IMG/VR virus record: IMGVR_UViG_2537561716_000006
Direction: 5' to 3' (one strand)
Source: a virus
Taxonomy: Duplodnaviria > Heunggongvirae > Uroviricota > Caudoviricetes
Length of the DNA: 13,299 nt
The translations under genes and the position numbers were made by a program. The notes below the pieces were generated by a model that was not told the DNA's origin, ran no database searches, and worked only from the letters and a program-made list of their open reading frames with translations. Shown here one piece after another: positions 7,766-12,301 of the stretch (the stretch's first letter is position 1; every line of letters starts with the position of its first letter).

Positions 7766-8157
7766 AACATACTGAACTCCGTGCAGCCGTACTGGATGCA
7801 CTGGAGAAGCATGACACCGGGGCGACGTTTTTTGATGGTCGCCCCGCTGTTTTTGATGAGGCGGATTTTCCGGCAGTTGCCGTTTATCTCACCGGCGCTG
7901 AATACACGGGCGAAGAGCTGGACAGCGATACCTGGCAGGCGGAGCTGCATATCGAAGTTTTCCTGCCTGCTCAGGTGCCGGATTCAGAGCTGGATGCGTG
8001 GATGGAGTCCCGGATTTATCCGGTGATGAGCGATATCCCGGCACTATCAGATTTGATCACCAGTATGGTGGCCAGTGGCTATGACTACCGGCGCGACGAT
8101 GATGCGGGCCTGTGGAGTTCAGCCGATCTGACTTATGTCATTACCTATGAAATGTGA
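7762..8157 (+). CDS. U: Tail terminator protein gpU (131 aa)
   Basis: [67 protein letters not shown]... matches lambda gpU at 131 aa. The start overlaps the Z stop as ATGA. Confidence 0.94.
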
Positions 8158-8164
8158 GGACGAT

Positions 8165-8905
8165 ATGCCAACACCAAATCCTCTGGCACCGGTGAAAGGG
8201 GCCGGGACCACACTGTGGGTTTATAACGGGAACGGCGACCCATATGCAAACCCGCTTTCAGACAATGACTGGTCGCGTCTGGCAAAGGTTAAAGACCTGA
8301 CGCCCGGCGAACTGACCGCTGAGTCCTATGACGACAGTTATCTCGATGATGAAGATGCGGACTGGGCCGCGACCGGACAGGGGCAGAAATCCGCTGGAGA
8401 TACCAGCTTCACGCTGGCGTGGATGCCCGGAGAGCAGGGGCAGCAGGCGCTGCTGGCGTGGTTTAATGAAGGTGATACCCGTGCCTATAAAATCCGCTTC
8501 CCGAACGGCACGGTCGATGTGTTCCGCGGCTGGGTCAGCAGTATCGGTAAGGCGGTGACGGCGAAGGAAGTGATCACCCGCACGGTGAAAGTCACCAACG
8601 TGGGACGTCCGTCGATGGCAGAAGATCGCAGCACGGTAACAGCGGCAACCGGCATGACCGTGACGCCTGCCAGCACCTCGGTGGTGAAAGGGCAGAGCAC
8701 GACGCTGACCGTGGCATTCCAGCCGGAAGGCGCAACCGACAAGAGCTTCCGTGCGGTGTCTGCGGATAAAACAAAAGCCACCGTGTCGGTCAGTGGTATG
8801 ACCATCACCGTGAAAGGTGTTGCTGCAGGCAAGGTCAACATTCCGGTCGTATCCGGTAATGGTGAGTTTGCTGCGGTTGCAGAAATCAACGTCACCGCCA
8901 GTTAA
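8165..8905 (+). CDS. V: Major tail tube protein gpV (246 aa) with C-terminal Ig-like domain
   Basis: ATG at 8165 is preceded by GAGGA. The product [57 protein letters not shown]... is 246 aa, equal to lambda gpV. The ORF-track start at 8135 overlaps the U 3' end and is rejected. Confidence 0.93.
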
Positions 8906-8920
8906 TCCGGAGAATCAGCG

Positions 8921-9343
8921 ATGTTCCTGAAAACCGAATCATTTGAACATAACGGCGTGACCGTCACGCTTTCTGAACTGTCAGCCCTGCAGCGTATTGA
9001 GCATCTCGCCCTGATGAAACGGCAGGCAGAACAGGCGGAGTCAGACAGCAACCGGAAGTTTACTGTGGAAGACGCCATCAGAACCGGCGCTTTTGTGGTG
9101 GCGATGTCCCTGTGGCATAACCATCCGAAGAAGACGCAGATGCCGTCCATGAATGAAGCCGTTAAACAGATTGAGCAGGAAGTGCTTACCACCTGGCCCG
9201 CGGAGGCAATTTCTCATGCTGAAAACGTGGTGTACCGGCTGTCCGGTATGTATGAGTTTGTGGTGAATGATGCCCCTGAACAGGCAGAGGACGCCGGGCC
9301 TGCAGAGCCTGTTTCTGCGGGAAAGTGTTCGACGGTGAGCTGA
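8921..9343 (+). CDS. G: Tail assembly chaperone gpG (140 aa)
   Basis: MFLKTESFEHNGVTVTLSELSALQRIEHLALMKRQAEQAESDSNRKFTVEDAIRTGAF... ends ...PVSAGKCSTVS. It matches lambda gpG in length and sequence. Confidence 0.93.
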   Translation: MFLKTESFEHNGVTVTLSELSALQRIEHLALMKRQAEQAESDSNRKFTVEDAIRTGAFVVAMSLWHNHPKKTQMPSMNEAVKQIEQEVLTTWPAEAISHAENVVYRLSGMYEFVVNDAPEQAEDAGPAEPVSAGKCSTVS

Positions 9344-9759
9344 GTTTTGCCCTGAAACTGGCGCGCGAGATGGGGCGACCCGACTGGCGTGCCATGCTTG
9401 CCGGGATGTCATCCACGGAGTATGCCGACTGGCACCGCTTTTACAGTACCCATTATTTTCATGATGTTCTGCTGGATATGCACTTTTCCGGGCTGACGTA
9501 CACCGTGCTCAGCCTGTTTTTCAGCGATCCGGATATGCATCCGCTGGATTTCAGTCTGCTGAACCGGCGTGAGGCTGACGAAGAGCCTGAAGATGATGTG
9601 CTGATGCAGAAAGCGGCAGGGCTTGCTGGAGGCGTTCGTTTTGGCCCGGACGGGAATGAAGTTATCCCCGCTTCCCCGGATGTGGCGGACATGACGGAGG
9701 ATGACGTAATGCTGATGACAGTATCAGAAGGGATCGCAGGAGGAGTCCGGTATGGCTGA
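8921..9759 (+). CDS. T: Tail assembly chaperone fusion gpG-T produced by programmed -1 ribosomal frameshift near 9319-9325
   Basis: The T frame (-1 relative to G) is open from 9325 to TGA 9757-9759, encoding ...FDGELSFALKLAREMGRPDWRAMLAGMSSTEYADWHRFYSTHYFHDVLL... It has no Shine-Dalgarno of its own and overlaps the G 3' end by 19 nt. The slippery heptamer G GGA AAG is in the G frame at 9319-9325. The G-T frameshift is the established mechanism in lambda. Confidence 0.85.
9319..9325 (+). promoter_or_regulatory. -1 programmed frameshift slippery heptamer G_GGA_AAG (G frame)
   Basis: Read directly: gcGGGAAAGtg, with codons GGA (9320-9322) and AAG (9323-9325) in the G frame. A slip to GGG AAA puts the ribosome in the T frame. 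Confidence 0.85.
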
Positions 9760-12301
9760 ACCGGTAGGCGATCTGGTCGTTGATTTAAGTCTGGATGCGG
9801 CCAGATTTGACGAGCAGATGGCCAGAGTCAGGCGTCATTTTTCCGGTACGGAAAGTGATGCGAAAAAAACAGCGGCAGTCGTTGAACAGTCGATGAGCCG
9901 GCAGGCGCTGGCTGCACAGAAAGCGGGAATTTCCGTCGGGCAGTATAAAGCCGCCATGCGTATGCTGCCTGCGCAGTTCACTGACGTGGCCACGCAGCTT
10001 GCAGGTGGGCAAAGTCCGTGGCTGATCCTGCTGCAACAGGGGGGGCAGGTGAAGGACTCCTTCGGCGGGATGATCCCCATGTTCAGGGGGCTTGCCGGTG
10101 CGATCACCCTGCCGATGGTGGGGGCCACCTCGCTGGCGGTGGCGACCGGTGCGCTGGCGTATGCCTGGTATCAGGGCAACTCAACCCTGTCCGATTTCAA
10201 CAAAACGCTGGTCCTTTCCGGCAATCAGGCCGGGCTGACGGCAGATCGTATGCTGGTCCTGTCCAGAGCCGGGCAGGCGGCAGGGCTGACGTTTAACCAG
10301 ACCAGCGAGTCACTCAGCGCACTGGTTAAGGCGGGGGTAAGCGGTGAGGCTCAGATTGCGTCCATCAGCCAGAGTGTGGCGCGTTTCTCCTCTGCATCAG
10401 GCGTGGAGGTGGACAAGGTCGCTGAAGCCTTCGGGAAGCTGACCACTGACCCGACGTCGGGGCTGACAGCGATGGCGCGCCAGTTCCATAACGTGACGGC
10501 GGAGCAGATTGCGTATGTTGCTCAGTTGCAGCGTTCCGGCGAAGAAGCCGGGGCATTGCAGGCGGCGAACGAGGCCGCGACGAAAGGGTTTGATGACCAG
10601 ACCCGCCGCCTGAAAGAGAACATGGGCACGCTGGAAACCTGGGCAGACAGGACAGCACGGGCATTCAAATCCATGTGGGATGCGGTGCTGGATATTGGTC
10701 GTCCTGATACCGCGCAGGAGATGCTGATTAAGGCAGAGGCCGCGTTTAAGAAAGCGGACGATATCTGGAATCTGCGCAAGGATGATTATTTTGTTAACGA
10801 TGAAGCGCGGGCGCGTTACTGGGATGATCGTGAAAAGGCCCGTCTTGCGCTTGAAGCCGCCCGAAAGAAGGCTGAGCAGCAGAGTCAACAGGACAAAAAT
10901 GCGCAGCAACAGAGCGATACCGAAGCGTCACGGCTGAAATATACCGAAGAGGCGCAGAAGGCTTACGAACGCCTGCAGACGCCGCTGGAGAAATATACCG
11001 CCCGTCAGGAAGAACTGAATAAGGCACTGAAAGACGGGAAAATCCTGCAGGCAGATTACAACACGCTGATGGCGGCGGCGAAAAAGGACTATGAAGCGAC
11101 GCTGAAAAAGCCGAAACAGTCCGGCGTGAAGGTGTCTGCGGGCGATCGTCAGGAAGACAGTGCTCATGCTGCCCTGCTGACGCTTCAGGCAGAACTCCGG
11201 ATGCTGGAGAAGCATGCCGGAGCGAATGAGAAAATCAGCCAGCAGCGCCGGGATTTGTGGAAGGCAGAAAGTCAGTTCGCGGTACTGGAGGAGGCGGCAC
11301 AACGTCGCCAGCTGTCCGCACAGGAGAAATCCCTGCTGGCGCATAAAGACGAGACGCTGGAGTACAAACGCCAGCTGGCTGTACTTGGCGACAAGGTCAC
11401 CTATCAGGAGCACCTGAACGCGCTGGCACAGCAGGCGGATAAATTCGCACAGCAACAACGGGCAAAACGGGCCGCCATTGATGCAAAAAACCGGGGGCTG
11501 ACTGACCGGCAGGCAGCGCGGGAAGCCACGGAACAGCGCCTGAAGGAACAGTATGGCGATAATCCTCTGGCGCTGAATAACGTCATGTCAGAGCAGAAAA
11601 AGACCTGGGCAGCTGAAGACCAGCTTCGCGGGAGCTGGATGGCAGGCCTCAGGTCAGGCTGGAGTGAGTGGGAAGAGAGCGCCACGGACAGTATGTCGCA
11701 GGTTAAAAGTGCTGCCACGCAGACCTTTGATGGTATTGCACAGAATATGGCGGCGATGCTGACCGGCAGTGAACAGAACTGGCGCAGCTTCACCCGTTCC
11801 GTGCTGTCCATGATGACAGAAATTCTGCTTAAGCAGGCAATGGTGGGGATTGTCGGAAGTATAGGCAGCGCCATTGGCGGCGGCGCATCAGCGTCAGGCG
11901 GTACAGCCATTCAGGCAGCTGCGGCGAAATTCCATTTTGCGGCCGGAGGGTTTACGGGAACCGGCGGCAAATATGAGCCAGCGGGGATTGTTCACCGTGG
12001 TGAATTTGTCTTCACGAAGGAGGCAACCAGCCGGATTGGCGTAGGAAATCTTTACCGGCTGATGCGCGGCTATGCCACCGGCGGTTATGTCGGTACACCG
12101 GGCAGCATGGCGGACAGCCGGTCGCAGGCGTCCGGGACGTTTGAGCAGAATAACCATGTGGTGATTAACAACGACGGCACGAACGGTCAGATAGGGCCAC
12201 AGGCACTGAAGGCGGTTTATGACGTAGCCCGTAAGGCGGCAATGGATGTTGTGACCGGGCAGATGCGCGATGGTGGTCTGTTCTCCGGAGGTGGACGATG
12301 A
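9752..12301 (+). CDS. H: Tail tape measure protein gpH (849 aa)
   Basis: ATG 9752 is preceded by GGAGGAG and overlaps the T stop. The product MAEPVGDLVVDLSLDAARFDEQMARVRRHFSGTESDAKKTAAVVEQ... ends ...MRDGGLFSGGGR and matches lambda gpH. It is long, coiled-coil and Q/A/K/E-rich centrally, with a Gly-rich hydrophobic segment near the C-terminus. It is 849 aa versus 853 aa recalled for lambda. Confidence 0.93.
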   Translation: MAEPVGDLVVDLSLDAARFDEQMARVRRHFSGTESDAKKTAAVVEQSMSRQALAAQKAGISVGQYKAAMRMLPAQFTDVATQLAGGQSPWLILLQQGGQVKDSFGGMIPMFRGLAGAITLPMVGATSLAVATGALAYAWYQGNSTLSDFNKTLVLSGNQAGLTADRMLVLSRAGQAAGLTFNQTSESLSALVKAGVSGEAQIASISQSVARFSSASGVEVDKVAEAFGKLTTDPTSGLTAMARQFHNVTAEQIAYVAQLQRSGEEAGALQAANEAATKGFDDQTRRLKENMGTLETWADRTARAFKSMWDAVLDIGRPDTAQEMLIKAEAAFKKADDIWNLRKDDYFVNDEARARYWDDREKARLALEAARKKAEQQSQQDKNAQQQSDTEASRLKYTEEAQKAYERLQTPLEKYTARQEELNKALKDGKILQADYNTLMAAAKKDYEATLKKPKQSGVKVSAGDRQEDSAHAALLTLQAELRMLEKHAGANEKISQQRRDLWKAESQFAVLEEAAQRRQLSAQEKSLLAHKDETLEYKRQLAVLGDKVTYQEHLNALAQQADKFAQQQRAKRAAIDAKNRGLTDRQAAREATEQRLKEQYGDNPLALNNVMSEQKKTWAAEDQLRGSWMAGLRSGWSEWEESATDSMSQVKSAATQTFDGIAQNMAAMLTGSEQNWRSFTRSVLSMMTEILLKQAMVGIVGSIGSAIGGGASASGGTAIQAAAAKFHFAAGGFTGTGGKYEPAGIVHRGEFVFTKEATSRIGVGNLYRLMRGYATGGYVGTPGSMADSRSQASGTFEQNNHVVINNDGTNGQIGPQALKAVYDVARKAAMDVVTGQMRDGGLFSGGGR

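What the first reader, a model, noticed from the sequence alone, without database searches (positions are those of the whole stretch)
9311..9345. Programmed -1 ribosomal frameshift joining G and T
The slippery heptamer G GGA AAG sits in the G frame at 9319-9325, 18 nt before the G stop. The -1 frame is open from there to 9759 and has no Shine-Dalgarno or independent ATG. This is the conserved G/G-T recoding arrangement that sets the chaperone ratio for tape-measure-dependent tail assembly.
Basis: partly seen in the sequence, partly recalled or inferred. Interest (0 to 1): 0.45.

Follow-up and report, generated by a model that had tools for sequence, protein, structure and literature searches.

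The report
Lambda G/GT tail-chaperone ribosomal frameshift site
This is the textbook programmed -1 ribosomal frameshift of phage lambda, which makes a small amount of a G-T fusion protein needed to build the tail; here it sits in a lambda-like E. coli prophage, so it is real but already well known.

Summary
G GGA AAG lies at 9319-9325 in the X XXY YYZ phase of gene G (8921-9343). It is five codons before the G stop. It opens into a -1 frame that runs to 9759 and overlaps the tape-measure gene start.

The window is a lambda-type late operon. It is 98% identical to lambda over G-T, and 9302-9365 is base-for-base identical to lambda. It is 100% identical to E. coli O157:H7 prophages. G matches PF06894 and the -1 ORF matches PF06223. 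They sit between the tail-tube and tape-measure genes.

In lambda this heptamer is the experimentally established G/GT -1 frameshift site (about 4%; G:GT about 30:1).

My comparison of 26 distinct junctions (G identity down to 32% among the 14 relatives compared) shows:
- An in-phase A AAG is always kept.
- The T-frame protein is conserved from the slip-site lysine onward, upstream of any Met.
- The GTG that databases use as the "T start" is not conserved.

The T frame does contain start-type codons (GTG 9325, ATG 9370 and later ones), but the early ones have weak Shine-Dalgarno sequences. The gap from heptamer to stop codon is 15 nt, or 18 nt to the end of the stop.

No conserved downstream RNA stimulator was found. 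Verdict: already known, low interest.

The parts
8921..9343 (+). Gene G: tail assembly chaperone gpG, 140 aa, zero-frame product ending ...PVSAGKCSTVS*
   Evidence: ORF and translation. PF06894 Phage_TAC_2, E 1.8e-59. phrog_42, E 1.1e-53. 96.4% identical to lambda G and 100% to phage PhiR26_1 G.
8907..8912 (+). Approximate position of the Shine-Dalgarno sequence (GGAG within CCGGAGAATCAGCGATG) that serves G and therefore also GT
   Evidence: Sequence. Anti-SD duplex -6.6 kcal/mol. A ribosome_binding_site is annotated at the equivalent place in phage 434 and lambda imm21 records.
9319..9325 (+). Slippery heptamer G GGA AAG, the -1 shift site. Gly-Lys is encoded in both frames (GGA AAG in frame 0, GGG AAA in frame -1).
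   Evidence: Phase checked. Identical to lambda. Named as the lambda G/GT slippery sequence in PMC3296357 Table 1 and PMC7618472. An in-phase A AAG is kept in all 26 distinct relatives.
9280..9340 (+). Overlap in which both the G frame and the -1 (T) frame are open. A shift must happen here to join G to T.
   Evidence: The last upstream -1-frame stop is TGA 9277-9279 and the G stop is at 9341. In relatives the overlap is only 22-70 nt.
9341..9343 (+). G stop codon TGA, bypassed by ribosomes that have shifted to -1
9322..9759 (+). T segment, read in the -1 frame from the slip-site Lys codon AAA to TGA 9757-9759. It forms the C-terminal 145 aa of the 279-aa GT fusion (...PVSAGK-VFDGELSFALKLAREMGRPDW...).
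   Evidence: Translation. PF06223 Phage_tail_T, E 2.1e-14. phrog_32165, a 290-position profile of joined GT proteins, matches G at profile positions 1-142 and T at 138-285. The protein is conserved from the slip Lys onward in relatives.
9752..12301 (+). Gene H: tape-measure protein, 849 aa, the client of G/GT. Its start overlaps the end of T by 8 nt.
   Evidence: PF06791 TMP_2 and PF09718. 97% identical to lambda H with a 4-aa deletion. Strong Shine-Dalgarno AGGAGGA, -10.3 kcal/mol.
8135..8905 (+). Gene V: major tail tube protein (maximal ORF; lambda's annotated start corresponds to an internal ATG). It is the reported binding partner of the T domain.
   Evidence: PF16461 Phage_TTP_12, E 2.7e-70, plus Big_2. 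Role of the T-V interaction from PMC5009743.

Best explanation
This is the lambda-type G/GT programmed -1 ribosomal frameshift, carried by a lambda-like prophage or phage of E. coli.

How it works:
1. Ribosomes start at the G start codon (8921).
2. Most of them read straight through to TGA 9341 and release gpG (140 aa).
3. A few percent shift when GGA is in the P site and AAG is in the A site (9320-9325). The two tRNAs slip back one base and re-pair with GGG and AAA. E. coli's single tRNA-Lys (anticodon mnm5s2UUU) pairs better with AAA than with AAG.
4. The shifted ribosome then reads the -1 frame to 9759 and makes a 279-aa GT fusion.
5. No RNA stimulator is needed. The slippery site alone gives a low, fixed rate, so the G:GT ratio (about 30:1) is hard-wired.
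6. The G parts bind the tape-measure protein H. The single T domain recruits the tail-tube protein V. Neither G nor GT ends up in the virion.

Shown here: the anatomy, identity with lambda's characterised site, family membership, conservation of the arrangement, and lack of a credible independent start for T.

Taken from the literature on lambda and not tested on this sequence: the shift itself, its rate, and the protein roles.
For: - Identity with lambda: 98% over 8900-9800 and exact identity over 9302-9365. 100% identity to O157:H7 prophages.
- Families and gene order V-G-T-H.
- Phase and frames.
- Uniqueness: this is the only one of 12 in-phase heptamers in the window that opens a long -1 ORF past a stop.
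- Comparative, 14 relatives with G identity 32-86%: an in-phase A AAG sits 1-5 codons before the G stop in all of them, and the -1 ORF extends 107-146 codons beyond the stop.
- Comparative, wider set: all 26 distinct junctions (window included) keep an in-phase A AAG and at least 100 -1-frame codons after the slip.
- The T-frame protein (K[AV][FL]..E[LMI].F...LARE[FM].R.DWR.ML) is conserved from the slip-site Lys onward. In the 15 codons before lambda's first in-frame ATG, variable columns fall 7/5/13 on -1-frame codon positions 1/2/3.
- Six of the 14 relatives have Phe where lambda has that first Met. Lambda's GTG is GTC, GTT, GCC or GCA in relatives.
- Weak Shine-Dalgarno at T-frame starts. 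No promoter-like site in 8700-9900.
- Literature: PMC3296357, PMC5009743, PMC7618472.
Against: - Nothing in the data contradicts it.
- No experiment exists on this exact prophage copy.
- Several true lambda late genes also score weak Shine-Dalgarno sequences in my measure (D, FI, V), so a weak Shine-Dalgarno alone does not exclude initiation.
- Many database records, including J02459 and RefSeq/PGAP, still annotate T as a free-standing CDS from the GTG.
Confidence: 0.97

Rival explanations
1. T is an independent gene that starts at GTG 9325 (as annotated in J02459 and by PGAP) or at ATG 9370, and the heptamer is incidental.
For: - GTG 9325 opens a 144-codon ORF.
- Databases annotate it that way.
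- One record even marks a 3-nt 'RBS' just upstream of that start.
Against: - Anti-SD energy is -2.2 kcal/mol at 9325 and -1.5 at 9370, below the window median.
- The GTG is not conserved: it is GTC, GTT, GCC or GCA in relatives. Lambda's first Met is Phe in six relatives. Yet the peptide between the slip site and that position is conserved with third-position-biased variation.
- Fused GT proteins form their own PHROG family.
- Lambda experiments show GT is made by frameshifting.
Confidence: 0.02
2. The two-frame arrangement is a decayed gene, i.e. a frameshift mutation in a once-single chaperone gene of a defective prophage.
For: The copy identical to the window lies in prophages of O157:H7 chromosomes. 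Many such prophages are defective (general knowledge, not tested here).
Against: - The same split, at the same codon, is present in functional phages (lambda, 434, HK630, and PhiR phages isolated on K-12).
- It is also present in every one of 26 distinct junctions, down to 32% G identity among the relatives compared.
- Both frames remain intact and under coding constraint.
Confidence: 0.005
3. The shift is made by RNA polymerase slippage (transcriptional realignment) and not by the ribosome.
For: Some relatives carry A AAA AAG, a run of six A. Homopolymer runs can support transcriptional slippage (PMC5009743, context).
Against: - The window has only three A and three G in a row, far shorter than the runs known to slip.
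- The rate in lambda responds to tRNA-Lys U34 thiolation, a ribosomal property (PMC3296357).
Confidence: 0.005

Closest known systems
Bacteriophage lambda G/GT programmed -1 frameshift (Levin, Hendrix & Casjens 1993; Xu, Hendrix & Duda 2004, 2013, 2014, as cited in PMC5009743 and PMC7618472)
   Same: - Same genes: G is 96.4% and H is 97% identical in protein.
- Same order V-G-T-H.
- Identical heptamer, identical 64 nt around it, same five-codon distance to the G stop.
- Same T frame, ending with the same 8-nt overlap with H.
   Different: Only scattered point differences. There are five amino-acid changes in G and no change in the T segment (-1-frame translations identical). H has a 4-aa deletion. 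The exact sequence is that of O157:H7 prophages and phage PhiR26_1, not laboratory lambda.
Tail assembly chaperone frameshifts of other long-tailed phages (the conserved 'G-T' arrangement; e.g. Stx-converting prophages, mEp237/mEp043, cdtI, Fels-1)
   Same: Two overlapping ORFs between the tail-tube and tape-measure genes. The second is in the -1 frame, with an in-phase A AAG near the end of the first.
   Different: Those clades use A AAA AAG or the non-canonical G GAA AAG in place of G GGA AAG. Some have the G stop only one codon after the slip site. Their T segments are 30-40 aa shorter.
E. coli dnaX -1 frameshift (A AAA AAG)
   Same: The same A-site event: tRNA-Lys slipping from AAG to AAA on an X XXA AAG heptamer (PMC5009743).
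   Different: - dnaX uses an upstream internal Shine-Dalgarno (my own knowledge) and a downstream stem-loop (title of Larsen et al. 1997, cited in PMC3965066) to reach about 50%. The shifted frame terminates early there (my own knowledge).
- Here I found no Shine-Dalgarno-like stimulator upstream and no family-wide conserved structure downstream.
- Here the rate is a few percent and the shift extends the protein.

Membership tests
Lambda-type G/GT tail assembly chaperone with programmed -1 frameshift | The upstream ORF is a gpG homologue | tested here: met
   PF06894, E 1.8e-59, covering profile positions 1-125 of 126. 96.4% identity to lambda G.
Lambda-type G/GT tail assembly chaperone with programmed -1 frameshift | The downstream ORF is in the -1 frame, overlaps the end of G, and is a T homologue | tested here: met
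   -1 frame open 9280-9759. PF06223, E 2.1e-14. phrog_32165, a joined GT profile, spans both parts.
Lambda-type G/GT tail assembly chaperone with programmed -1 frameshift | Location between the major tail (tube) gene and the tape-measure gene | tested here: met
   V (PF16461) at 8135-8905 and H (PF06791, PF09718) at 9752-12301.
Lambda-type G/GT tail assembly chaperone with programmed -1 frameshift | A slippery X XXY YYZ heptamer in the zero-frame phase inside the overlap | tested here: met
   G GGA AAG at 9319-9325 with 9319 a third codon base. Identical to lambda's site.
Lambda-type G/GT tail assembly chaperone with programmed -1 frameshift | T has no translation start of its own | tested here: met
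   In silico only. Weak Shine-Dalgarno at all early in-frame starts. GTG 9325 and ATG 9370 are not conserved in relatives, while the peptide upstream of them is. No promoter-like site.
Lambda-type G/GT tail assembly chaperone with programmed -1 frameshift | A GT fusion protein is actually made at a few percent of G and is required for tail assembly | not testable with these tools
   Established for lambda in the literature. Here it is inferred from exact sequence identity of 9302-9365 with lambda.
Stimulator-dependent -1 PRF (dnaX or IS-element type, with a downstream stem-loop/pseudoknot or an upstream Shine-Dalgarno) | A conserved RNA structure 5-9 nt downstream of the heptamer, or a Shine-Dalgarno-like element upstream | tested here: not met
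   - Folds of 60 and 100 nt downstream are not exceptional (z +0.53 and -1.69).
- A structure suggested by 11 sequences fails on 26 distinct junctions. 74.6% of cells are paired, two pairs are broken in 16 of 26, and the RNAalifold consensus is -2 kcal/mol.
- Anti-SD energy just upstream of the site is -2.2 kcal/mol.

The most novel reading that the evidence does not exclude
Within the lambda, Stx-prophage and mEp237 subclade only, the RNA just downstream could act as a weak, lineage-specific modulator of the frameshift rate.
- Outer helix: 9334-9340 pairs with 9396-9402, starting 8 nt after the heptamer.
- Inner hairpin: 9359-9394.

Linked to this, the three slip-site types seen at the same codon (G GGA AAG, A AAA AAG, G GAA AAG) could set different G:GT ratios in different clades. 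Neither idea is excluded by my data. The structure is not conserved family-wide, and reviews state that no stimulator seems involved.
Probability: 0.07. Interest if true: 0.3.

Novelty: already known. Interest (0 to 1): 0.07.

Why it matters
It matters mainly for annotation. RefSeq/PGAP and the original lambda record still list "T" as a free-standing gene that starts at a GTG. The biologically real product is the G-T fusion. Sequence matching this G-T region (60-100% identity) occurs in 3,703 of 5,426 complete E. coli genomes, with a median of two places per genome that has any. The mis-annotation is therefore very widespread.

Biologically it is the classic case of a ribosomal frameshift that fixes the ratio of two assembly chaperones. 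Nothing new about that mechanism is learned from this window.

Tried and rejected
1. Downstream RNA stimulator.
- Single-sequence folds of 9326-9385 and 9326-9425 were unremarkable.
- RNAalifold on 11 relatives proposed a two-helix structure starting 8 nt after the heptamer. It had 90.9% of cells paired and some double changes.
- I enlarged the set to 26 distinct junctions. The structure then fell to 74.6% paired. 'Pairs with a change on both sides' was no better than shuffles (249 of 500). RNAalifold's own consensus collapsed to -2 kcal/mol.
- Rejected as a conserved element.

2. Upstream Shine-Dalgarno-like stimulator: none.

3. Antisense ORFs across the site (9041-9412, 9186-9416 and 9459-9692 on the minus strand): no Pfam hits for any of the three, and no PHROG hits for the two that were scanned, 9041-9412 and 9186-9416. 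Treated as chance ORFs.

4. Statistical significance of the heptamer by itself: not significant.

5. Primary papers could not be read: Xu et al. 2013 (PMC3762263) and Liu et al. 2013, lambda ribosome profiling (PMC3718152), are not held. Statements about lambda experiments rest on reviews and on Maynard et al. 2012.

6. Note that the body text of PMC3296357 misprints the site as 'GGGTTTG', while its Table 1 gives GGGAAAG.

Full report
**1. What is in the sequence**

The window around the finding reads ...CCT GTT TCT GCG GGA AAG TGT TCG ACG GTG AGC TGA in the frame of an ORF that starts at ATG 8921 and stops at TGA 9341-9343.
- GGGAAAG occupies 9319-9325.
- 9319 is the third base of the Ala codon, so the heptamer is in the X XXY YYZ phase (G GGA AAG).
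- Five codons (15 nt) separate it from the stop codon.
- The -1 frame is closed by TGA at 9277-9279. It is then open from 9280 to TGA 9757-9759, which gives 146 codons from the slip.
- The +1 frame closes at 9336.
- A shifted ribosome would make a 279-aa protein...PVSAGK then VFDGELSFALKLAREMGRPDW....

**2. Is it more than chance?**

The heptamer alone is not.
- GGGAAAG occurs three times in the window against 1.9 expected. Sixty-seven of 200 shuffles have at least three.
- The other plus-strand copy (2956) is out of phase.
- Across about 4,289 codons of the plus-strand genes there are 12 in-phase X XXY YYZ heptamers and 20 in-phase A AAG tetramers.
- The G site is the only one that sits next to a stop and opens a -1 frame that runs beyond that stop, for 146 codons.
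- The other eleven hit a -1 stop inside their own gene after 3-85 codons.

**3. What the region is**

The window is a lambda-type late operon.
- 8900-9800 is 98.0% identical to lambda J02459 and 99.7% identical to phage PhiR26_1.
- The whole window is 97-98% identical to phages 2H10, PhiR26_1, 434 and HK630.
- The G-T segment is 100% identical to prophages of E. coli O157:H7 chromosomes.
- The alignment shows 9302-9365 is base-for-base identical to lambda.
- G matches PF06894 (E 1.8e-59) and the -1 ORF matches PF06223 (E 2.1e-14).
- The upstream gene is the tail tube protein V (PF16461). The downstream gene is the tape measure H (PF06791 and PF09718).
- A PHROG profile of joined GT proteins (phrog_32165, 290 positions) matches G at profile positions 1-142 and the T segment at 138-285.

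**4. What is known for lambda**

- Maynard et al. 2012 (PMC3296357) list GGGAAAG as the lambda G/GT slippery sequence. They state that the zero frame is kept about 96% of the time. They show that under-thiolated tRNA-Lys(UUU) raises the shift and lowers phage yield.
- Atkins et al. 2016 (PMC5009743) describe a G:GT ratio of about 30:1 that is crucial for tail assembly.
- In their account, G and the G part of GT bind the tape-measure protein, and the T domain binds the major tail protein. Neither is in the virion.
- Hill and Brierley 2023 (PMC7618472) say the same.
- The primary papers (Levin et al. 1993; Xu et al. 2004, 2013, 2014) were not available to me.

**5. Independent comparative evidence**

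I collected G-T junctions from annotated phages, species-representative genomes and IMG/VR contigs.
- Among about 100 close relatives, all but one carry the identical GCG GGA AAG ... TGA.
- Fourteen diverged relatives (G identity 86% down to 32%) all keep an in-phase A AAG 1-5 codons before the G stop. Their -1 ORFs run 107-146 codons beyond it, and the two-frame overlap is only 22-70 nt.
- All 26 distinct junctions, window included, keep an in-phase A AAG and at least 100 -1-frame codons after the slip.
- The heptamer comes in three forms: G GGA AAG, A AAA AAG and G GAA AAG.
- The -1-frame protein aligns without gaps from the slip-site Lys onward: K[AV][FL]..E[LMI].F...LARE[FM].R.DWR.ML.
- In the 15 codons between the slip site and lambda's first in-frame ATG, variable columns fall 7, 5 and 13 on -1-frame codon positions 1, 2 and 3. 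That is the signature of coding in that frame.
- Six of the 14 relatives have Phe where lambda has that Met.
- Lambda's GTG (9325 here) is GTC, GTT, GCC or GCA elsewhere.

The T frame is therefore translated from the slip site and not from a start of its own.

**6. Initiation and transcription checks**

- The -1 frame does contain start-type codons: GTG 9325, then ATG 9370, 9394, 9406, 9478 and later.
- Anti-SD duplex energies upstream of the first nine candidates are -2.5 kcal/mol or weaker. About half of all window positions do better. G has -6.6 and H has -10.3.
- Caveat: D, FI and V also score weak.
- No promoter-like site lies in 8700-9900.

**7. Stimulators**

- There is no Shine-Dalgarno-like element just upstream of the heptamer.
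- Folds of 60 and 100 nt downstream are unexceptional, with z of +0.53 and -1.69.
- RNAalifold on 11 relatives proposed an outer helix (9334-9340 with 9396-9402) around a hairpin (9359-9394). It had 90.9% of cells paired.
- On 26 distinct junctions pairing falls to 74.6%, and pairs 43:74 and 44:73 are broken in 16 sequences.
- Double-sided changes are no more frequent than in shuffles (249 of 500). RNAalifold's own consensus drops to -2 kcal/mol.
- I reject it as a conserved stimulator. This agrees with the reviews.

**8. Mechanism and rivals**

The best explanation is tandem slippage of tRNA-Gly (P site) and tRNA-Lys (A site) on G GGA AAG. It has no stimulator and gives a few percent GT.

The rivals are all contradicted by the comparative data and by the lambda literature:
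- independent initiation of T;
- a decayed gene;
- transcriptional slippage.

**9. Verdict**

The feature is the already-known lambda G/GT recoding site in a lambda-like E. coli prophage.

The only practical point is annotation. J02459 and RefSeq/PGAP still list T as a separate CDS from the GTG. A few records join G and T.

Noticed in passing
L007-L018 and others: Lambda-identical G loci lie on very low-coverage contigs (coverage about 1). Some contigs are about 48.4-48.5 kb, the size of the whole lambda genome. They are in assemblies of unrelated bacteria (Neobacillus, Oceanobacillus, Kitasatospora, Shewanella, Pseudomonas, Leeuwenhoekiella, Paenibacillus and others). This looks like lambda DNA contamination of public assemblies and not prophages.
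   Followed up: no
L086:1891-1923: One IMG/VR relative has GCA GGA AAG in place of GCG GGA AAG. This synonymous Ala change breaks the X XXY YYZ rule but keeps A AAG. The T frame is intact (138 codons beyond the stop). It could be a natural low-shift variant or a sequencing error.
   Followed up: partly
L113, L116-L120, L123-L202 (slip site at 698-704 in L123-L202): Twenty of the 26 distinct G-T junctions use G GAA AAG. This is not a canonical X XXY YYZ heptamer, because P-site GAA would have to re-pair with GGA. Three use A AAA AAG. Only the A AAG tetramer is universal, which suggests that single-tRNA-Lys slippage is the core event in this family.
   Followed up: partly
window 9325-9759; L203:826-1260; L001:1926-2360: RefSeq/PGAP (WP_000459457.1) and the original lambda record annotate 'T' as a free-standing 144-aa CDS starting at the GTG inside the slippery site. 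Only some records (e.g. phage 434, OL657226) give the joined GT CDS. Sequence matching the G-T region is present in 3,703 of 5,426 complete E. coli genomes.
   Followed up: partly
window 9752-12301: The tape-measure protein H is 849 aa against 853 in lambda. It has a 4-aa deletion (GGAV) in the glycine-rich stretch after residue 708, plus changes clustered in the last 20 residues. Overall identity is 97%.
   Followed up: partly
window 9696-9717: A strong Shine-Dalgarno-like GGAGGA precedes in-frame ATGs at 9709 and 9715 near the end of T (anti-SD -9.5 kcal/mol). These would give only peptides of 14-16 aa in the T frame. It is probably a by-product of the TEDDVMLM coding sequence.
   Followed up: no
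window 9334-9402: In the lambda, Stx and mEp237 subclade a two-helix RNA fold starting 8 nt after the heptamer is well paired (90.9% of cells in 11 sequences). It is not kept in the cdtI and Fels-1 clades. The nucleotide conservation is also explained by the highly conserved LAREMGRPDWRAMLAGM peptide.
   Followed up: yes
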